From: Candidatus Omnitrophota bacterium
GTDB lineage: Bacteria; Omnitrophota; Gorgyraeia; Duberdicusellales; 4484-171
DNA: 64,000 bases
Assembly: GCA_041652815.1 (NCBI GenBank)
Contig: JBAZGN010000004.1
Location: 15,890-79,889, forward strand
Direction of reading: 5' to 3'
Below are positions 25,631-35,246 of this stretch, in pieces. The position numbers and the translations under genes are program-made. The notes under the pieces are model-generated. The model worked only from the letters and a program-made list of their open reading frames with translations. It had not been told where the DNA came from and made no database searches. Numbering within the stretch: position 1 is the stretch's first letter; every line of letters starts with the position of its first letter.

Positions 25631-25708
25631 GGCCCCATCGTCTAGCTTGGCCTAGGATGTCAGCTTCTCAAGCTGAATACACCGGTTCAAATCCGGTTGG
25701 GGCTGCCA
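25631..25708 (+). tRNA. tRNA-Glu (anticodon CTC), CCA encoded
   Basis: Cloverleaf parsed by hand: acceptor GGCCCCA/TGGGGCT, D stem GTCT/GGAT, anticodon stem TCAGC/GCTGA with loop TTCTCAA, T arm ACCGG-TTCAAAT-CCGGT; weak hairpin plus T-run follows. Confidence 0.8.
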
Positions 25709-29825: not shown

Positions 29826-30213
29826 ATGAACCCTGAAAGGGCTATCTAGATAGTTAAAAAAGGCTCCGACTCTCAATTTTTCCCCCCACCATTGTTAAAA
29901 TATTTTTAAAAATCGTGAAGCGAAAGAAGTAGGTTCTGATTTTATCAGGGGTTTTTGAGGTTGAGGAAAAGCCTATAAGGGTGTATACTGATCAATACCA
30001 GAAATCCTTGAATTAAAGTCAGTGATTTCTAGTATTTATTGCCCCGTCGTATATCGAGCGAAGGCGGGATTAATGGGGTGCGGCTACATTGCGAAATTTT
30101 ATACATTCATATCAAAATTGGATAAAAGTTATGGGTATACCTTTGCTGAAAGCGGTGAAGGTTTTTTAGTTTTTGGGCAGATATTATAAAAAATTATTAT
30201 TGAAAGGAGAAGC

Positions 30214-30561
30214 ATGGAAGATGTTAAAAAAATAACCGAAAAAATTAAAAAATTTCGCGACGATCGAGATTGGATGCAATTTCACGATCCTAAAAATATG
30301 GCTGTTTCAATTATTCTCGAAGCTTCTGAGTTGCTAGAGCACTTTCAATGGAAAACAATTGAGGAGGTGGAGGAGTATTCAAGGCAAAACAAAGGCGAGA
30401 TTAGAGACGAAATTGCTGACATTGCTTTATATCTTTTTGAATTAGCGGATAATCTAGGAATTAATTTAATCGATGCAATGGAGCAAAAACTCAAAAAAAA
30501 TGAAATGAAATATCCAATTGAAAAAGCTAAAGGAAAGCATACTAAATATAACAAATTATAA
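30214..30561 (+). CDS. MazG-like nucleoside triphosphate pyrophosphohydrolase (small, single-domain)
   Basis: 115 aa; 'EASELLEHFQWK' and 'EIADIALYLFELAD' EExxE/ExxD metal-binding helices; strong GGAG RBS. Confidence 0.7.
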   Translation: MEDVKKITEKIKKFRDDRDWMQFHDPKNMAVSIILEASELLEHFQWKTIEEVEEYSRQNKGEIRDEIADIALYLFELADNLGINLIDAMEQKLKKNEMKYPIEKAKGKHTKYNKL

Positions 30562-30564
30562 TTC

Positions 30565-33009
30565 ATGAGACTTTACTCTGGAAGCTCTGCCCAATTTATC
30601 CAAGATGTCATTCAAAATCAAATAGCAGAAAAATTAAAACTAGCTTTTTTTGATTACTTTCGTTTTTATCCCTCACCCGGAGAAATAAATTCATGGAGAA
30701 ATTCTTTGAGATCGATTTCTCAGACTTTTCAATATGCAAATTTATTAGACCACGGAATAATCCTTGAATACCAGTTACCGTTGACTTCCAAAAGATTAGA
30801 TTGCTTAATTTGTGGTAAAGATAAAGAAAATATAGATAATTCTGTTATTGTGGAGCTAAAGCAATGGGATAAATGTGAGGAGGCTATTGGAGAGAATGAG
30901 GTTTTGACTTGGCTGGGCGGCGCTAAAAGAGAAGTGCTGCATCCTTCAGTTCAAGTCGGTCAATATAAGATGTATTTAGAAGATACACATACTGCTTTTA
31001 ATGTTGACGAGAATCCTATTAGATTAAATGCATGTACCTACTTACATAACTATAGTTATTATTCCGCGGATGTTATTTTTTCTCGTAAATTTAAACAAGC
31101 ATTAGATTCCTATCCATTGTTTACAGCAGACGATGTTGACAAAATGAAAGATTATTTGCTAGACAGATTAGCTTCAGGAATGGGCATGGAAGTTCTCAAA
31201 AGAGTGGAGAAAAGCAAATACAAGCCAAGTAAGAAATTAATGGATCATGTTGGGTCGGTAGTAAAGAATAAATTGAAAGGTAAAGACGTAAAAATCTTAG
31301 GAGGAGTTCAAAATGACTATATCCTTCTAGATGAGCAGTTAATTGCGTACGATAAAGTTTTAGCTTTGGTAAAAAGGGGTTTTCATGATAAACAAAAGAA
31401 TATCCTAATAATTAGTGGTGGTCCAGGAACAGGTAAATCGGTCATAGCATTGAAACTCTTAGCTGATTTAAATGAAATGCATTACAACGCGCAATATGCA
31501 ACTGGTTCAAAGTCATTTACGGAAACATTACGAAAAATTGTTGGGACAAGAGCTGCTGCACAATTCAAATATTTTTTGAGTTATGCTGATGCCCAAAGTA
31601 ACGAAATAGATATATTAATTTGTGATGAAGCTCATAGGATACGCGAAAAAACGGTCCGCAGATACGGTAGACCTTCCGGTATAAAACAAGTCGAAGAGAT
31701 AATCCAAGCCGCAAAAGTAGTAGTGTTTCTAATTGATCAAGATCAAATTGTCCGCCCCGGAGAAATAGGTTCCAGTGATTTAATTAAAGAATATGCAAAT
31801 AAACATATTTGTAAAATATCGGAATATGAATTAGCGGCTCAATTTAGGTGTAATGGTTCTGACGCTTTTATAAATTGGGTGAACAATACTTTGGTTATTA
31901 GGAAAACTGCTAATGTTATATGGGATTTGCATGAAGAATTTGATTTCAAAATATTTACATCGCCCTTTGAGCTAGAAAAGGCTATCAGAAATAAAGTAGA
32001 TAAAGGGTATACGGGCAGAGTAACTGCAGGTTTTTGTTGGGAATGGAACTATCCCAAGGAAGATGGTACCTTGATAGACGATGTTATAATCGGTGATTAC
32101 AAACGCCCCTGGGATGCTAAGCATGACGCAAAAAAACTTGCTTTAGGGATACCGAAGGCTTCATTTTGGGCCTACGATCCTAATGGTATAAATCAAATAG
32201 GATGTATCTATACGGCTCAGGGATTTGAGTTTGATTATGTTGGTGTAATCTTTGGTGAAGATCTTAAGTATAACTTTGATGAGCAGAACTGGGTAGCTCA
32301 CAAAGAAAATTTTGCTGACTCTCAAGTTTTAAGAGCGAAGGATGAAGACTTACTTAAATACCTAAAAAATATTTATCGTGTTCTCTTGACCAGAGGCATA
32401 AAGGGTTGTTATGTTTATTTCATGGACAAGGATACCGAACGTTTTTTTAAATCGCGTATCGAAGGTGTACCTATTTATAAAGAAGAAACGCTTAAGCTTT
32501 CTGATTTAGTTACCGTGGAAGATCAATTGATCCATAAAATTGAGCAAGATATTGCCGAAAATCTTAAATATGTAGAGTATTTACCAGTTTATTCTTTAGA
32601 GGTTGCTGCCGGTAATTTTGGTCAAGCCATGAGTAGCGAAGAAGAGGGATGGATCAAGACAGATATTGGTAAAAAGTTGGATAAACGAATGTTTGTTGCA
32701 AGAGTTGTTGGTCATTCGATGGAGCCTTTAATTCCGGAAGGCAGGTACTGTATTTTTAGGTGGGGGGTTGAGGGGACTAGACAAAATAAGATTGTTTTAG
32801 TTCAGCATAATAGCATTGCTGATCCTGATACTGGAGGCAAATATACAGTTAAGAAATATACGAGCAAGAAAAAAATTGTTGATGGTGTAGCATGGGAGCA
32901 CGAAGCAATAAAACTTTTGCCATTAAATACAGCTTACAAGCCTATAGATATTCCTAATTCAGAAGAGGGTAGCTTTATTGTGATAGCTGAATTTATTAAG
33001 GTATTGTAA
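30565..33009 (+). CDS. Fusion: N-terminal PD-(D/E)xK-like region + DUF2075-type P-loop/DEAH SF1 helicase-like ATPase + C-terminal LexA/CI-type S24 autopeptidase domain
   Basis: D79 and E97-x-K99 in hydrophobic strands; Walker A 'GGPGTGKS' (285-292); Walker B 'ICDEAH' (352-357); 'YTAQGFEFDYVGVI' and 'VLLTRG' DUF2075 hallmarks; C-terminal 'VAAG' (A682-G683), 'GHSMEP' (S718), 'TVKKY' (K763/764) with LexA-like spacing. Confidence 0.75.
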   Translation: MRLYSGSSAQFIQDVIQNQIAEKLKLAFFDYFRFYPSPGEINSWRNSLRSISQTFQYANLLDHGIILEYQLPLTSKRLDCLICGKDKENIDNSVIVELKQWDKCEEAIGENEVLTWLGGAKREVLHPSVQVGQYKMYLEDTHTAFNVDENPIRLNACTYLHNYSYYSADVIFSRKFKQALDSYPLFTADDVDKMKDYLLDRLASGMGMEVLKRVEKSKYKPSKKLMDHVGSVVKNKLKGKDVKILGGVQNDYILLDEQLIAYDKVLALVKRGFHDKQKNILIISGGPGTGKSVIALKLLADLNEMHYNAQYATGSKSFTETLRKIVGTRAAAQFKYFLSYADAQSNEIDILICDEAHRIREKTVRRYGRPSGIKQVEEIIQAAKVVVFLIDQDQIVRPGEIGSSDLIKEYANKHICKISEYELAAQFRCNGSDAFINWVNNTLVIRKTANVIWDLHEEFDFKIFTSPFELEKAIRNKVDKGYTGRVTAGFCWEWNYPKEDGTLIDDVIIGDYKRPWDAKHDAKKLALGIPKASFWAYDPNGINQIGCIYTAQGFEFDYVGVIFGEDLKYNFDEQNWVAHKENFADSQVLRAKDEDLLKYLKNIYRVLLTRGIKGCYVYFMDKDTERFFKSRIEGVPIYKEETLKLSDLVTVEDQLIHKIEQDIAENLKYVEYLPVYSLEVAAGNFGQAMSSEEEGWIKTDIGKKLDKRMFVARVVGHSMEPLIPEGRYCIFRWGVEGTRQNKIVLVQHNSIADPDTGGKYTVKKYTSKKKIVDGVAWEHEAIKLLPLNTAYKPIDIPNSEEGSFIVIAEFIKVL

Positions 33010-33011
33010 AT

Positions 33012-33704
33012 ATGATTAAATCCGGAGATGTTATTTCTTATTTAGATATGTGCAAAGAAGAAGGAGTTAACCTCCAGCGAGGAATGAATTATCGATTACG
33101 AAGTGGATTTAGTGTTATTCTTATGAGCGTAAGGCTCGGTGCGCCATATGCTGATAAGGTTGAAGAAAATGGTAAAATTCTAATTTATGAAGGTCATGAT
33201 ATTCCTCAAACAAGTGGGGGGCCTATTCCGAAAAAAGTAGATCAGCCTAAGAATAATCCCGGAGGCAGCTTAACTCAAAATGGCTTATTTTATAAAGCGG
33301 CTTTAGAATATAAAGATAAGCGAAAAGATCCAGAGTTAGTTAAGGTCTACGAGAAAATACGATCAGGAATTTGGGCATATAACGGCATATTTAAATTGAT
33401 AGACTCATGGCAAGAGAATAGTAACGCAAGAAAGGTTTTTAAATTCAAGCTTAAGATGGTAGAGGAAGTTCAAAGAAGTGTGATTAAGCAAAAAGATATC
33501 GAGCACAATAGACTAATTCCAACTTCTGTGAAACTAGAAGTTTGGAAACGAGATAAAGGTAAATGTGTGGTGTGTGGTAGTGCTGATAATTTGCATTTTG
33601 ATCATATAATTCCTTATTCGAGAGGAGGGTCTTCGTTGGTTGCAAAAAACGTTCAATTGTTGTGTGCAAGACATAATATTGGGAAACGAGATAAGATTGA
33701 ATAA
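33012..33704 (+). CDS. HNH endonuclease with N-terminal putative modified-base-binding (SRA/YDG- or PUA-like) domain; candidate type IV restriction enzyme
   Basis: C-terminal 'CVVCGSADNLHFDHIIPYSRGG...NVQLLCARHN' Zn-HNH motif; N-terminal about 170 aa with 'G..hxYxG' core reminiscent of SRA; starts 3 nt after the helicase gene. Confidence 0.6.
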   Translation: MIKSGDVISYLDMCKEEGVNLQRGMNYRLRSGFSVILMSVRLGAPYADKVEENGKILIYEGHDIPQTSGGPIPKKVDQPKNNPGGSLTQNGLFYKAALEYKDKRKDPELVKVYEKIRSGIWAYNGIFKLIDSWQENSNARKVFKFKLKMVEEVQRSVIKQKDIEHNRLIPTSVKLEVWKRDKGKCVVCGSADNLHFDHIIPYSRGGSSLVAKNVQLLCARHNIGKRDKIE

Positions 33705-33757
33705 ATAATAGTTCCATTTTTAAAAAATAGATACTTTTGGAATTATTTTTTAATTAC

Positions 33758-34165
33758 ATGTTCGACAAATTAGATTTCTTCCAACTTCTACCCCGTCTTC
33801 GACGTTCTAAATTCCGTTCCAAATTTAAACTCGACCAAAAGGATTTGGATTATATTGAAAAAGTGGGGATGGAGAAGATAAAACAGCATGCGCAGGATTT
33901 TATAGAAAAGCGGCTAGCGCCGGCAGAGCCGCCGAATGACGGAAGACAAACACCATTCAAGGGGCATCCGGTTTTTAAGGCACAGCATGCAACCGCCACT
34001 TGCTGCCGCAGTTGCCTTCTAAAATGGCATTCAATTCCTAAAGGCCGCGCGTTAACTGCTGATGAATGTCAGAAAATTATCGATATCTTACTCGCCTGGA
34101 TTGTCTGGCAAACCAATTCCACCCCGGAGGTGGAACGCAGCACAAACCTAAATCCCACCGCGTAG
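33758..34165 (+). CDS. DUF4186 family protein
   Basis: 'RSKFRSKF', 'RLAPAEPPNDGRQTPFKGHPVFKAQHATATCCRSCLLKWH' match the DUF4186 hallmark as remembered; start assigned to the internal ATG. Confidence 0.55.
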   Translation: MFDKLDFFQLLPRLRRSKFRSKFKLDQKDLDYIEKVGMEKIKQHAQDFIEKRLAPAEPPNDGRQTPFKGHPVFKAQHATATCCRSCLLKWHSIPKGRALTADECQKIIDILLAWIVWQTNSTPEVERSTNLNPTA

Positions 34166-34189
34166 CTGGAATGGATCCGCTTATACAAT

Positions 34190-34229
34190 TTACACTACAT
34201 TTTAAATTTCATGGTATAATGTAGTGTAA
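34190..34229. promoter_or_regulatory. Palindromic element (12-bp arms TTACACTACATT/AATGTAGTGTAA, 16-bp spacer containing TATAAT) just upstream of the two-gene cassette
   Basis: Perfect inverted repeat read directly; -10-like TATAAT inside; AAGGAGG RBS and ATG 34245 follow. Confidence 0.7.
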
Positions 34230-34244
34230 AAACAAGGAGGCATT

Positions 34245-34550
34245 ATGAAGGTATTAAAAGGTATTTTATCGGAGAGTAAAGAATACTATCTTAGCATTAA
34301 GCGAAAGATAGAAAAAAGGCTCACAGAGCTACCTAAAGGTAGTATTAAGGAGCGAAGAATTTCAGGACAAAAATATTATTACCTGCAACAGCGAGTCGGG
34401 AAGAAGATATCACACAAGTATTTAGGGAAGCAAAAGCCAGAGCTTATTATAAAACAAATAAAAGAACGGGATGTTTTGAAACTTGAGTTAAAAAAAGTAA
34501 TCGCGTCCCTTAAAATGATACGAAAGTCAGAAGGCAAAAAACATGGTTGA
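34245..34550 (+). CDS. Small basic protein, putative partner/antitoxin of the downstream nucleotidyltransferase
   Basis: 101 aa, Lys/Arg-rich; strong RBS; stop overlaps the downstream start (ATGGTTGA). Confidence 0.5.
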   Translation: MKVLKGILSESKEYYLSIKRKIEKRLTELPKGSIKERRISGQKYYYLQQRVGKKISHKYLGKQKPELIIKQIKERDVLKLELKKVIASLKMIRKSEGKKHG

Positions 34551-35232
34551 ATCAGTTAATAAAATACTTAAGGTATTTGCTGACAATGGTCTTTTTGAAG
34601 AAGGAGTAGAGCTTATTGGAAGCTGGTGTTTCCACCTCTATCAAAAACATCTGGGCGCAAAAAGTTTTCCATTGAGGACGCAAGATATTGATTTTCTGAT
34701 ACCTAATCCTTATCGTGGGAAGGAGCATAAAGATTTTATAGACCAGCTAAAGGAATTGGGTTTTAATTACGATTTTAGTAATAATGGGTCTTTATATCTT
34801 TGGAACGCTGATTTTAAAATAGAATTTATAACTCCCCTAAAGGGCCGTGGATTAGAAAAGAGCATAAAGATTAAGGCGTTTGGTTTTAAAGCCATACCGC
34901 TAAGATTCGTTGATTTATTGTTAAACCACCCTATCAATATAAACGATAATGGCATTAATATTAAAATACCTAATCCAGCTAATTTTTGTCTTCACAAACT
35001 TATAGTCGCATCGCGTAGAAAAAAATTAGACAAAGCTTCAAAGGATTTACAACAGGCAATTTGTACCTCTGTAATCTTGGATAAACAAGAAGTTAAGAAA
35101 TTATTTGAGACTTTGCCAAAAAAATGGAAAAAAGCGATTTTAAAAATGCTAGAAAAGTCCAAAAAAGAATTGCCTTTATTACTTGAAGAAATAAATCAAT
35201 TAGAATTTACACTACAAGGTACTAAAAAATAA
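34543..35232 (+). CDS. Nucleotidyltransferase-fold protein, AbiEii/DUF1814-like (putative type IV TA toxin / Abi effector)
   Basis: 'IGSWCFHLY...RTQDIDFLI' resembles the G[GS]...R.S.DIDF nucleotidyltransferase motif; translationally coupled to the upstream small gene. Confidence 0.5.
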   Translation: MVESVNKILKVFADNGLFEEGVELIGSWCFHLYQKHLGAKSFPLRTQDIDFLIPNPYRGKEHKDFIDQLKELGFNYDFSNNGSLYLWNADFKIEFITPLKGRGLEKSIKIKAFGFKAIPLRFVDLLLNHPININDNGINIKIPNPANFCLHKLIVASRRKKLDKASKDLQQAICTSVILDKQEVKKLFETLPKKWKKAILKMLEKSKKELPLLLEEINQLEFTLQGTKK

Positions 35233-35246
35233 ATAATGTAGTGTAA
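35207..35246. repeat. Second copy of the cassette-flanking palindrome (TTACACTACA ... TGTAGTGTAA, 18-bp spacer)
   Basis: Shares 'AATTTACACTACA' and 'ATAATGTAGTGTAA' with the 34190-34229 copy; overlaps the last codons of the nucleotidyltransferase gene. Confidence 0.7.

What the first reader, a model, noticed from the sequence alone, without database searches (positions are those of the whole stretch)
30214..35246. Compact defence-like accessory island between glgP and the I42/β-lactamase gene
Six or seven tightly packed genes with noticeably lower GC than the flanking housekeeping genes:
- A MazG-like NTP pyrophosphohydrolase.
- The helicase-S24 fusion.
- An HNH nuclease with a reader-like N-domain.
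- A DUF4186 protein.
- A palindrome-flanked small-protein plus AbiEii-like nucleotidyltransferase pair.

This is the classic defence-island mix of nucleotide-depleting, nuclease/helicase, restriction and toxin-antitoxin/Abi functions, with no integrase or transposase.

A plausible wiring: the modification-dependent HNH enzyme cuts modified phage DNA, RecBCD/RecA* forms on the breaks, the S24 domain then self-cleaves, and the nuclease-helicase is activated. MazG trims the dNTP pool and the nucleotidyltransferase cassette acts as an abortive-infection backstop. This wiring is speculative.
Basis: inference. Interest (0 to 1): 0.75.

Follow-up and report, generated by a model that had tools for sequence, protein, structure and literature searches.

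The report
Patchwork defence island, not one circuit
This 5-kb stretch of an Omnitrophota genome holds three independent accessory modules, and its core is a dCTP-pyrophosphatase-like enzyme paired with a nuclease-helicase, a pairing found across bacteria and archaea that I could not find described as a system.

Summary
**Observation: confirmed.**
- There are six same-strand genes at the stated coordinates, with the predicted domains.
- The stretch is the lowest-GC 5 kb of the window: 35.3% against 38.8%.

**Interpretation: partly supported.** The region is a patchwork, not one wired circuit.

**Module 1 (30214-33704)** is a tightly packed operon of three genes:
- a DCTPP1-like MazG;
- a PD-(D/E)xK nuclease + SF1B/DUF2075 helicase + LexA-like S24 protein;
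- an SRA-HNH type IV endonuclease.

Across 80 related loci:
- MazG abuts the helicase in 55 of 80.
- The SRA-HNH abuts it in only 3.
- Other modification-reader HNH nucleases recur beside the pair: VcaM4I-like in 17 of 80, and MrcB_N-HNH.
- S24 is fused in about a quarter of relatives, with the Ser/Lys dyad and an Ala/Cys-Gly site conserved.

**Module 2:** the DUF4186 gene has the highest GC in the window and never co-occurs with the other genes.

**Module 3:** a small protein plus a GSU2403-type nucleotidyltransferase.
- The pair is conserved in 79 of 82 loci.
- It is bracketed by two copies of TTACACTACA-N20-TGTAGTGTAA.
- These arms are better conserved than the proteins.
- The upstream copy encloses an extended -10 promoter.

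No function was tested. The mechanisms given are inferences.

The parts
30214..30561 (+). g1: all-alpha NTP pyrophosphatase of the MazG-like / DCTPP1 (RS21-C6) type, 115 aa. The metal-binding motif is present: E36, E39 ... E66, D69.
   Evidence: Pfam PF12643 at E 6e-20. Full-length alignment to Archaeoglobus pyrophosphatase 4qgp (E 8e-26) and to mouse dCTP pyrophosphatase 1 6sqw/2a3q (E 3e-17), with the ExxE and ExxD motifs aligned. A homologue abuts the helicase gene in 55 of 80 related loci.
30565..31314 (+). g2 N-terminal domain (aa 1-250): PD-(D/E)xK nuclease, NERD-like.
   Evidence: E68, R77, D79, E97-L-K99, Q130 and Y134 are invariant in 27 sequences of 24-69% identity. D79 and E97/K99 lie on consecutive strands of the model. 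Weak hits fall only in PD-(D/E)xK clan families: NERD in 4 of 27 members (E 6e-4), PDDEXK_9, REase_MTES_1575 and AHJR-like. No PDB sequence match.
31396..32427 (+). g2 central domain (aa 278-621): SF1B helicase of the DUF2075 / Schlafen group-3 type. Walker A is GGPGTGKS at 285-292, and the motif D354-E355-x-H357 is present.
32584..33009 (+). g2 C-terminal domain (aa 674-814): LexA/UmuD-like S24 self-cleaving peptidase. The putative scissile bond is A682-G683 (nt 32608-32613), with Ser718 and Lys763 as the dyad.
33012..33704 (+). g3: SRA-HNH endonuclease of type IV, modification-dependent architecture. SRA is aa 1-150 (33012-33461) and HNH is about aa 165-230 (33504-33701).
   Evidence: Pfam HNH/HNH_5 plus a weak SAD_SRA hit. 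The AF2 model with Foldseek returns only SRA domains. Invariant residues C185, C188, H195, D197, H198, N213, H221 and N222. It starts 2 nt after the g2 stop codon.
33737..34165 (+). g4: DUF4186 protein of unknown function. Probably not part of either neighbouring module.
   Evidence: Pfam PF13811 at E 7e-50. GC 0.45 and GC3 0.47 against 0.27-0.34 for its neighbours. Absent from all 80 helicase loci and from the 96 loci L083-L178 (85 cassette-derived, 11 g3-derived). No PDB or PADLOC hit.
34190..34229 (.). Palindrome 1: TTACACTACA-N20-TGTAGTGTAA. It encloses an extended -10 (TGGTATAAT) and ends 15 nt before the g5 ATG. Inferred to be an operator overlapping the cassette promoter.
   Evidence: The same arms occur upstream of 60 of 68 assessable homologous cassettes. 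The loop ends in TGnTAnAAT in 32 of 40 non-redundant loci.
34245..34550 (+). g5: 101-aa basic protein. Its 66%-identical homologues carry a precomputed DUF6788 label. Inferred to be the regulator/antitoxin partner of g6.
   Evidence: A homologue lies directly upstream of the nucleotidyltransferase, with an 8-nt overlap, in 79 of 82 loci. My own hmmscan gave no DUF6788 hit.
34543..35232 (+). g6: GSU2403-family nucleotidyltransferase-fold protein (PF12281). The Pol-beta motifs G26-S27 and D48-x-D50 are intact. Inferred to be the toxin/effector.
   Evidence: Pfam at E 3e-29. Invariant residues. More than 100 clusters at 66-93% identity. No AbiEii or PADLOC hit.
35207..35246 (.). Palindrome 2: the same arms and the same 20-nt spacing, spanning the g6 stop codon (35230-35232). 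It has no promoter motif. Inferred to be a second binding site or a 3' hairpin.
   Evidence: Conserved at 57 of 76 assessable homologous cassettes. The two palindromes lie 1008-1029 bp apart in 46 loci. 0 of 40 loops carry the -10 motif, and the stop codon lies in the loop in 30 of 40.

Best explanation
The 5-kb stretch is three unrelated accessory modules that ended up side by side, not one circuit.

**Module 1 (30214-33704) is an operon whose gene starts follow the previous stop within 2-3 nt.**
- Its conserved core is a DCTPP1-like NTP pyrophosphatase plus a PD-(D/E)xK-nuclease / SF1B-helicase. This has the same domain architecture as the Nhi anti-phage enzyme but belongs to a different sequence family.
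- A modification-dependent HNH nuclease is appended to this core. Here it is an SRA-HNH.

Inferred mechanism for module 1:
1. The SRA domain flips out 5-modified cytosines in invading DNA, and the HNH domain nicks or cuts.
2. The nuclease-helicase loads on the breaks or on replication intermediates and degrades the DNA processively.
3. The pyrophosphatase hydrolyses dCTP-type nucleotides, most plausibly 5-modified dCTP.
4. The phage precursor pool is thereby drained, and modified dC released from degraded DNA is not re-incorporated into the host chromosome, where it would become a target of the cell's own type IV enzyme.
5. The C-terminal S24 domain is a LexA-like self-cleaving switch. RecA-ssDNA filaments formed at the breaks stimulate cleavage at A682-G683. 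This releases a protein roughly 50 residues longer than the naturally S24-less homologues of about 625 aa (it keeps the linker up to A682), which I take to be the active form.

**Module 2** is a DUF4186 gene of unknown role and different composition.

**Module 3 (34190-35246)** is a mobile, autoregulated two-gene cassette that resembles a toxin-antitoxin pair.
- It consists of a small basic protein plus a GSU2403-type nucleotidyltransferase.
- Its promoter sits inside a conserved palindromic operator.
- A second copy of the operator spans the end of the cassette.

**Shown here:** the domains, the gene adjacencies, the conservation statistics and the cis elements.

**Inferred:** every biochemical activity, the substrate of the pyrophosphatase, RecA dependence, the direction of the S24 switch, and toxicity of the nucleotidyltransferase.
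For: **The pair**
- MazG lies within 150 bp of the helicase in 55 of 80 loci from many bacterial and archaeal phyla. In 46 it is upstream on the same strand, with gaps of -3 to +49 nt in 45 of them and one 64-nt overlap.
- The pair persists in relatives of 26-37% identity: Priestia, Halalkalicoccus and B. thuringiensis plasmids.

- SRA-HNH occurs in L006, L080, L070, L176/177 and L117.
- An HNH_2 protein occurs in 17 of 80 loci against 0 of 85 control loci. Its HNH region matches the modification-dependent enzymes VcaM4I (E 7.5e-13) and TagI.
- An MrcB_N-HNH gene overlaps MazG in Priestia.
- An earlier paper noted modification-dependent endonucleases next to DUF2075 NTPases (PMC6765204).

**Defence context**
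- Neighbours hit HNH, REase, mad2, PDC-S05/S09, capH and RmrA models.
- Relatives sit in plasmid islands with restriction-modification systems.
- Family members are fused to N6_Mtase, Type_ISP_C, caspase and PNP_UDP domains.
- Nhi has the same nuclease + DUF2075 architecture and protects against phage (10.1101/776245).

**Individual domains**
- g1 resembles DCTPP1.
- S24: fold, catalytic dyad and cleavage site are conserved. A second, more canonical S24 is fused at the same position in Patescibacteria relatives.
- g3 has an SRA fold.

**Cassette**
- The pair is conserved in 79 of 82 loci.
- The palindrome arms are identical although the proteins are only 56-74% identical.
- The upstream loop holds a -10 element.

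**Independence of the modules**
- There are no g4, g5 or g6 homologues in the 80 helicase loci.
- g4 has a different composition.
Against: - Nothing was tested experimentally.
- PADLOC models recognise g2 only weakly and partially (67 bits to PDC-S41; Nhi and AbiO over aa 249-482 only) and do not recognise g1.
- SRA-HNH itself abuts the helicase in only 3 of 80 loci. About three quarters of loci show no reader nuclease within the fetched flanks, so the pair does not need one.
- Most SRA-HNH homologues stand alone.
- 18 of the assessable loci lack MazG.
- Identity to the window proteins for MazG and for the helicase is uncorrelated (Spearman -0.08). This argues against a tight physical complex, though it is compatible with a role on small molecules.
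- 16 of 105 S24 sites read A-T or A-S, which in LexA would be expected to cleave poorly.
- The g2 model is mediocre (pLDDT 64.8, pTM 0.35), so nothing can be said about how S24 docks.
- The N-terminal nuclease call rests on motifs and weak hits only.
- One contig (L117) does carry the cassette next to an SRA-HNH / MazG / helicase set, so complete independence of module 3 is not proven.
Confidence: 0.55

Rival explanations
1. All six genes form one integrated defence circuit: the HNH enzyme cuts, RecA* forms, S24 cleaves and activates the helicase, MazG trims dNTPs, and the nucleotidyltransferase pair acts as an abortive-infection backstop.
For: All six genes are on the same strand and tightly packed. 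Five of the six have low GC3. In one other contig (L117) the nucleotidyltransferase cassette lies directly upstream of an SRA-HNH / MazG / helicase set.
Against: g4, g5 and g6 have no homologue in any of the 80 helicase loci. The closest triplet relatives (L176/L177) are followed by different genes. The cassette occurs in entirely unrelated contexts and has its own promoter and operator. g4 has a different composition.
Confidence: 0.07
2. The MazG + nuclease-helicase (+S24) pair is a DNA-damage or replication-stress repair module, not anti-phage defence. On this view it processes forks or ends in the manner of Dna2 or SLFN11, is switched by the SOS signal, and uses MazG as an ordinary house-cleaning enzyme.
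For: An S24/LexA-type switch is the hallmark of SOS-regulated functions. The helicase resembles Dna2, RecD2 and SLFN11. DCTPP1 relatives are known as pool-sanitising enzymes (my own knowledge; alignment). Sequence conservation across phyla is high at 47-70%.
Against: The distribution is sporadic and the genomic contexts vary. The pair occurs on plasmids beside restriction-modification systems. It is recurrently adjacent to type IV-like HNH nucleases. Family members are fused to methylase/Type ISP, caspase and PNP domains. Its architecture is shared with the proven defence enzyme Nhi.
Confidence: 0.12
3. The S24 domain does not act as an activating switch. Either it is a LexA-type dimerisation module that is never cleaved, or its cleavage shuts the enzyme off to spare the chromosome during a genuine SOS response.
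For: LexA and CI C-terminal domains mediate dimerisation, and Nhi is reported to dimerise. 16 of 105 sites carry A-T or A-S. No docking information can be drawn from the model.
Against: Ser and Lys are kept in about 94% of homologues, and A/C-Gly in 85% of recognisable sites. That is not expected for a purely structural domain. The product left after cleavage resembles the natural S24-less homologues of about 625 aa apart from a linker tail of roughly 50 residues, and these make up three quarters of the family.
Confidence: 0.25
4. The two TTACACTACA-N20-TGTAGTGTAA palindromes are the ends of a mobile cassette, that is, recombination or transposition sites, rather than operators. Alternatively they act as RNA hairpins recognised by the nucleotidyltransferase.
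For: Identical elements bracket the cassette at a fixed distance of 1008-1029 bp in 46 loci. The cassette sits in unrelated contexts. The downstream copy has no promoter.
Against: No recombinase is encoded in or next to the cassette. The upstream copy encloses a conserved extended -10, so transcripts should start in or after the right arm and would lack the 5' hairpin. The arms are invariant rather than covarying, which fits sequence-specific protein binding.
Confidence: 0.2

Closest known systems
Nhi and 'Nhi-like' nuclease-helicase immunity proteins (Bari et al., 10.1101/776245; Millman et al., 10.1101/2022.05.11.491447)
   Same: Both have an N-terminal PD-(D/E)xK nuclease followed by an SF1B helicase that overlaps DUF2075. 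Both have a variable C-terminal domain, a sporadic distribution driven by horizontal transfer, and defence-gene neighbours.
   Different: The sequence family differs. The PADLOC Nhi and AbiO models match only aa 249-482, at E about 1e-14. Nhi works as a single gene, whereas this family is usually paired with a MazG-like pyrophosphatase and often with a reader-HNH nuclease. The C-terminal domain here is an S24 autoprotease, not a glyoxalase/bleomycin-resistance domain.
SRA-HNH type IV (modification-dependent) restriction endonucleases: TagI, ScoA3IV/Sco5333 (PMC6765204)
   Same: [quoted passage not shown]
   Different: g3 is shorter (230 aa against about 310 for TagI). Its HNH domain matches PF01844/HNH_5 rather than the HNH_2 type that matches TagI and VcaM4I. 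Here it is packed 2 nt behind the stop codon of a helicase gene, with probable translational coupling. Specificity has not been tested.
LexA / UmuD / lambda CI self-cleaving S24 proteins
   Different: The cargo attached to the S24 domain is a nuclease-helicase of roughly 680 aa instead of an HTH DNA-binding domain or the UmuD N-terminal tail. RecA dependence and cleavage are unknown.
DCTPP1 / RS21-C6 dCTP pyrophosphatase, and defence by nucleotide depletion (dCTP deaminase, dGTPase; the latter from my own knowledge)
   Same: g1 aligns end to end with mouse DCTPP1 and keeps the ExxE...ExxD metal site. The idea of acting on the dNTP pool resembles known depletion defences.
   Different: No bacterial DCTPP1-type enzyme was found described as a defence component. 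The substrate is unknown, and it may sanitise the pool rather than deplete it.
AbiE (AbiEi/AbiEii) and MenAT nucleotidyltransferase toxin-antitoxin systems (from my own knowledge)
   Same: Both are overlapping two-gene operons with a small upstream partner, a Pol-beta-type nucleotidyltransferase with GS and DxD motifs, and a palindromic operator at the promoter.
   Different: g6 belongs to PF12281/GSU2403, not AbiEii PF08843, and has no PADLOC hit. g5 is not an AbiEi-type wHTH protein. A second operator copy at the 3' end is not, to my knowledge, a feature of AbiE.

Membership tests
Nhi / Nhi-like nuclease-helicase | N-terminal PD-(D/E)xK nuclease domain | tested here: met
   D79 and E97-x-K99 are invariant, along with E68 and Q130-x3-Y134, in 27 sequences of 24-69% identity. 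Weak hits to NERD, PDDEXK_9 and REase families. This is motif-level evidence only; there is no PDB sequence match.
Nhi / Nhi-like nuclease-helicase | SF1B helicase overlapping DUF2075 | tested here: met
   PF09848 at E 2e-91. Structural matches to Dda, RecD2, SLFN11 and Pif1.
Nhi / Nhi-like nuclease-helicase | Full-length match to the family's sequence model | tested here: not met
   PADLOC Nhi (PDLC02372) and AbiO match only aa 249-482, at E 2.6e-14 and 2e-15. The best hit, PDC-S41, scores 67 bits over short stretches.
Nhi / Nhi-like nuclease-helicase | A single gene is sufficient for phage protection | not testable with these tools
   Needs plaque assays. The genomic pairing with MazG in 55 of 80 loci suggests a two-gene unit.
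LexA/UmuD/CI S24 self-cleaving proteins | S24 fold with a Ser-Lys catalytic dyad | tested here: met
LexA/UmuD/CI S24 self-cleaving proteins | Ala-Gly or Cys-Gly scissile bond in a loop N-terminal to the catalytic core | tested here: met
   The window has LPVYSLEVAA|GNF, with A682-G683. Among homologues the site is A-G in 69, C-G in 20, A-T in 13 and A-S in 3.
LexA/UmuD/CI S24 self-cleaving proteins | Self-cleavage, stimulated by RecA-ssDNA | not testable with these tools
   Biochemical assay required.
SRA-HNH type IV restriction endonucleases | SRA (base-flipping 5mC/5hmC reader) domain | tested here: met
   All top-50 Foldseek PDB hits are SRA domains (E down to 9e-7, target TM 0.6). The Pfam SAD_SRA hit is below its cut-off (24.9 against 30.7 bits).
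SRA-HNH type IV restriction endonucleases | HNH catalytic domain with conserved His/Asn and Cys residues | tested here: met
   PF01844 at E 5e-7. H195, D197, H198, N213, H221, N222, C185, C188 and C218 are invariant in 33 sequences. The structural model of this part is poor.
SRA-HNH type IV restriction endonucleases | Cleavage depends on modified cytosine | not testable with these tools
   Needs digestion of modified and unmodified substrates.
DCTPP1 / MazG-like all-alpha NTP pyrophosphatases | PF12643 membership and the ExxE...ExxD metal site | tested here: met
   71.6 bits against a cut-off of 27. E36/E39 and E66/D69 align with the DCTPP1 and 4qgp motifs.
DCTPP1 / MazG-like all-alpha NTP pyrophosphatases | Preference for dCTP or 5-modified dCTP | not testable with these tools
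   Enzyme assay required. The preference is known for the mammalian enzyme only (my own knowledge).
AbiE type IV toxin-antitoxin (AbiEi/AbiEii) | AbiEii (PF08843) toxin domain | tested here: not met
   The only hit is PF12281 NTP_transf_8. There is no PADLOC hit.
AbiE type IV toxin-antitoxin (AbiEi/AbiEii) | AbiEi-type wHTH antitoxin upstream | tested here: not met
   g5 (101 aa) has no Pfam, NCBIfam or PADLOC hit. Its homologues are labelled DUF6788 in precomputed tables.
AbiE type IV toxin-antitoxin (AbiEi/AbiEii) | Overlapping bicistron with a palindromic operator at the promoter, and catalytic GS/DxD motifs | tested here: met
   8-nt overlap. The palindrome encloses TGnTAnAAT in 32 of 40 loci. 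G26-S27 and D48-x-D50 are invariant. These features show that it may work like such a system, not that it is a member.

The most novel reading that the evidence does not exclude
**Proposal.** The DCTPP1-like pyrophosphatase plus NERD-nuclease / SF1B-helicase pair is an undescribed, widely spread (Bacteria and Archaea) defence module.

**How it would work.**
- It acts as the processive 'executioner' for interchangeable modification-dependent HNH sensors.
- The pyrophosphatase destroys modified dCTP, which both starves the phage and prevents self-targeting.
- In the S24-fused quarter of the family, the effector itself is a direct RecA* sensor. It would be an SOS-licensed nuclease switched on by proteolytic removal of its own C-terminal domain.

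**Separate point.** The DUF6788 / GSU2403 cassette, with its invariant double operator, would be a new toxin-antitoxin or abortive-infection family.
Probability: 0.3. Interest if true: 0.8.

Novelty: new variant of a known kind. Interest (0 to 1): 0.62.

Why it matters
- **A possible missing co-factor.** DUF2075 / Schlafen-type nuclease-helicases are known single-gene anti-phage enzymes. The usual pairing with a dCTP-pyrophosphatase-like enzyme suggests that screens testing the helicase gene alone may miss an essential partner.
- **Type IV restriction.** The recurrent docking of unrelated modification-reader HNH nucleases suggests that type IV restriction is often a two-stage process: a sensor that nicks, then a processive degrader. 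It also suggests that the cell must police its own dCTP pool to avoid self-restriction.
- **A new form of regulation.** A LexA-type autoprotease fused to the effector would be a direct link between the SOS signal and an immune nuclease, a kind of regulation not yet shown for defence systems.
- **The cassette.** Its palindrome arms are conserved better than its proteins, which gives a ready-made, testable operator-repressor pair for an uncharacterised nucleotidyltransferase family.
- **Testability.** All of this can be tested with standard cloning, plaque assays and simple biochemistry.

Tried and rejected
**Searches that returned nothing useful**
- PDB sequence searches with g2, g4 and the profile of the g2 N-domain found nothing usable.
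- Rfam found nothing in 29.5-35.6 kb.
- The 390-nt leader upstream of g1 folds no better than shuffled sequence (z -0.13).
- No paper in the library mentions DUF2075 together with MazG or pyrophosphohydrolase, nor GSU2403/DUF6788/PF12281 in a functional sense. This is absence from that library, not proof of absence.

**Negative results on the island as a unit**
- No direct repeats bound the island, so there is no att-like signature.
- The promoter and terminator scans found no more sites than in shuffled sequence.
- Synonymous codon usage does not separate the island from the rest of the window.

**Results that did not reproduce or were not informative**
- The DUF6788 label for g5 was not reproduced by my own hmmscan, even at E up to 10.
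- Foldseek on the whole g2 model returned only helicases and AAA+ proteins and said nothing about the N-domain.

**Ideas considered and dropped**
- A cluster of TPR proteins upstream of some MazG-less helicases looked like an alternative partner. I dropped it as probably repeat-driven clustering, because two members have no Pfam hit at all.
- A prophage or ICE origin: there is no integrase, and only 4 phage records carry a homologue of g2.

**Not possible**

Full report
**1. What is there**

The finding's coordinates hold six + strand ORFs.

| Gene | Coordinates | Assignment |
|---|---|---|
| g1 | 30214-30561 | MazG-like (PF12643) |
| g2 | 30565-33009 | 814 aa; DUF2075/Schlafen-group-3 helicase (aa 278-621) plus Peptidase_S24 (aa 674-804) |
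| g3 | 33012-33704 | HNH plus a sub-threshold SAD/SRA hit |
| g4 | 33737-34165 | DUF4186 |
| g5 | 34245-34550 | no hit |
| g6 | 34543-35232 | NTP_transf_8 (PF12281) |

- The organism is a Candidatus Omnitrophica MAG. g2 is 100% identical to a protein on a 209-kb contig.
- Gene spacing is 3 nt (g1 to g2), 2 nt (g2 to g3), 32 nt (g3 to g4) and 79 nt (g4 to g5). g5 and g6 overlap by 8 nt.

**2. Composition**

- The stretch is 35.3% GC against 38.8% for the window, and it is the lowest 5-kb stretch in it.
- Five genes have GC3 of 0.27-0.34 against 0.369 +/- 0.040 elsewhere (p about 0.02).
- DUF4186 has the highest GC3 in the window (0.47).
- Codon-usage likelihood does not differ.
- No direct repeats bound the region. 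There is no integrase.
- Composition therefore supports 'accessory' only mildly, and it already suggests more than one origin.

**3. The nuclease-helicase and its partner**

How widespread g2 is:
- g2 has more than 100 full-length relatives at 57-71% identity.
- Across a library of 1.84 billion representatives there are 896 clusters at E<=1e-30.

N-terminal domain:
- An alignment of 27 N-terminal domains spanning 24-69% identity keeps E68, R77, D79, E97-L-K99, Q130 and Y134 invariant.
- The only weak family hits are PD-(D/E)xK families such as NERD and PDDEXK_9.
- I read the N-domain as a PD-(D/E)xK nuclease on motif evidence alone.

Helicase domain:
- It resembles SF1B enzymes: Dda, RecD2, Pif1, SLFN11 and Dna2.
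- This is the architecture of the anti-phage enzyme Nhi.
- PADLOC's Nhi and AbiO models match only the first helicase lobe. It is a different sequence family.

Neighbourhoods in 80 genomic loci from many bacterial and archaeal phyla, scanned with the window proteins:
- A MazG-like gene lies within 150 bp of the helicase in 55 loci.
- In 46 of these it is upstream on the same strand, with gaps of -3 to +49 nt in 45 of them and one 64-nt overlap.
- 22 loci lack it, and 4 of those are cut by a contig end.
- The pairing persists in distant relatives on plasmids: Priestia (34% identity), Halalkalicoccus (32%), and B. thuringiensis pBMB400 (26.5%, with a PRA-PH-type pyrophosphatase).
- I found no paper that mentions DUF2075 together with MazG or pyrophosphohydrolase.
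- g1 aligns end to end with mouse dCTP pyrophosphatase 1 (RS21-C6) and keeps the metal-binding ExxE...ExxD motif.

**4. Is the triplet conserved?**

- The SRA-HNH abuts the helicase in only L006 and L080. It is close by in L070, and 6.7 kb upstream on the opposite strand in L071.
- Its 84%-identical relative sits in the same MazG / helicase-S24 / SRA-HNH order in L176/L177. There the helicase is only 41-45% identical, so the central gene has been exchanged.
- More distant SRA-HNH homologues (71-72%) stand alone next to GmrSD_N or restriction-modification genes, or between housekeeping genes.
- The specific triplet is therefore a minor arrangement.

However, the position next to the pair is recurrently filled by other reader-HNH nucleases:
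- A roughly 310-aa HNH_2 protein occurs in 17 of 80 loci against 0 of 85 control loci. Its HNH region matches the modification-dependent enzymes VcaM4I (6yex, E 7.5e-13) and TagI.
- An MrcB_N-HNH gene overlaps MazG in Priestia.
- An HNH_4 protein lies between the pyrophosphatase and the helicase in Bacillus plasmids.
- DUF3427- or DUF3883-containing proteins also appear.
- Lutz et al. had already noted modification-dependent endonucleases adjacent to DUF2075 NTPases (PMC6765204).

Further context:
- Neighbours often hit defence models.
- Family members are fused to N6-methylase, Type_ISP_C, caspase and nucleoside-phosphorylase domains.
- Taken together, a defence role for module 1 is well supported by context. 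It is unproven.

**5. g3**

- The AlphaFold model is confident over residues 1-150.
- Foldseek returns only SRA domains, including ScoMcrA.
- The HNH residues are invariant.
- g3 is an SRA-HNH of type IV architecture.

**6. The S24 domain**

- A profile of the domain finds only LexA in the PDB and aligns Ser718 with LexA Ser119.
- The loop LPVYSLEVAA-GNF resembles LexA's LPLVGRVAAG.
- Among 113 full-length homologues the predicted scissile pair is A-G in 69, C-G in 20, A-T in 13 and A-S in 3.
- The Ser is kept in 106 and the Lys in 107.
- S24 is present in about 22 of 80 loci.
- Patescibacteria relatives carry a more canonical S24 (VGCG...GDSM) at the same position.
- Cleavage at A682-G683 would leave a protein roughly 50 residues longer than the natural S24-less homologues of about 625 aa, because it keeps the linker up to A682. 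On that basis I favour activation by removal of S24. This is an inference.

**7. Proposed mechanism for module 1**

This is inference, apart from the anatomy above.
2. The nuclease-helicase degrades from the breaks.
3. The DCTPP1-like enzyme removes modified dCTP, which starves the phage and prevents re-incorporation into host DNA.
4. In this sub-family, RecA* formed at the breaks triggers S24 self-cleavage.

MazG and helicase identities to the window proteins are uncorrelated across 62 pairs (Spearman -0.08). This fits an enzyme that acts on small molecules rather than a co-evolving complex. The test is crude.

**8. g4**

- DUF4186 has no homologue in any fetched locus.
- It has no structural or defence hit.
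- Its composition differs from its neighbours.
- I treat it as unrelated.

**9. The g5-g6 cassette**

- g6 keeps the Pol-beta nucleotidyltransferase motifs G26-S27 and D48-x-D50.
- In 82 loci holding g6 relatives (56-74% identity), a g5 homologue lies directly upstream in 79. The other three are cut by a contig end.
- The same arms occur upstream of 60 of 68 and downstream of 57 of 76 assessable cassettes, 1008-1029 bp apart. The arms are better conserved than the proteins.
- The upstream loop ends in an extended -10 (TGnTAnAAT) in 32 of 40 non-redundant loci. The downstream loop never does, and it usually contains the g6 stop codon.
- The cassettes sit in unrelated contexts.
- Best reading: a mobile, autoregulated, toxin-antitoxin-like pair with an operator over its promoter and a second site at its 3' end.
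- It is not an AbiE member. There is no AbiEii or AbiEi hit.

**10. Verdict**

- The 'defence island' label is reasonable for module 1 and plausible for module 3.
- The single integrated wiring is not supported.
- The most interesting elements are:
  - the widely conserved and apparently undescribed pyrophosphatase + nuclease-helicase pair;
  - its modular association with type IV-like HNH nucleases;
  - the LexA-type autoprotease fused to the effector;
  - the doubly bracketed nucleotidyltransferase cassette.

Noticed in passing
L117 2203-5687 (metagenome contig Ga0194125_10007952); L119 is a related locus that runs out inside the SRA-HNH gene: A second genome carries the DUF6788-like/nucleotidyltransferase cassette directly upstream of an SRA-HNH (54% identical to g3), a MazG (83%) and a nuclease-helicase (38%). 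The order differs from the window, with the HNH gene before MazG. This is the only such case among 82 cassette loci, and none of the 80 helicase loci had the cassette.
   Followed up: partly
L176/L177 122-3548, compared with window 30214-33704: MazG (89%) and SRA-HNH (84%) are close relatives of the window genes, but the helicase-S24 between them is only 41-45% identical. The central gene appears to have been swapped between lineages. Across 62 loci, MazG and helicase identities to the window proteins are uncorrelated.
   Followed up: partly
P0429, P0436, P0481, P0435, P0499 (relatives of g2): The nuclease-helicase core occurs fused to an N6 DNA methylase, a Type ISP C-terminal specificity domain, a nucleoside-phosphorylase (PNP_UDP_1) domain, a caspase domain and a PIF1 helicase.
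   Followed up: partly
L045 6097-9878; L081 3904-7890: Two divergent DUF2075 nuclease-helicase genes sit in tandem in Rufibacter glacialis and on a Hymenobacter canadensis plasmid. On the plasmid they lie next to a DNA methyltransferase and a DUF4747 gene.
   Followed up: no
window 29826-30213: The 390-nt gap between glgP and g1 holds a promoter-like site (29961-29989), a palindrome with 24-nt arms (29991-30039), and a terminator-like hairpin with a T-run (30139-30172) only about 40-50 nt before the g1 start. This could be a leader or a small RNA. There is no Rfam hit and no unusual folding energy.
   Followed up: partly
window 33737-34165: The DUF4186 gene has the highest GC3 (0.47) of 61 genes in the window, yet it sits inside the lowest-GC stretch. 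Its only listed start codon is TTG.
   Followed up: no
window 34245-34550; L083 2703-3008: Precomputed tables label the 66%-identical homologue of g5 as PF20586 (DUF6788). My own hmmscan against Pfam-A gave no such hit for g5 or its homologues, even at E up to 10.
   Followed up: partly
window 1-64000: Essentially every long ORF in the 64-kb window is on the + strand, and GC skew is positive throughout. The only tRNA is tRNA-Glu(CUC) at 25631-25708.
   Followed up: no
L020, L021, L035, L040, L058, L061, L062 (immediately upstream of the helicase): In several loci that lack an upstream MazG, the gene before the helicase is a TPR-repeat or TPR-like protein. This may be an artefact of repeat-driven clustering, or it may be an alternative partner.
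   Followed up: no
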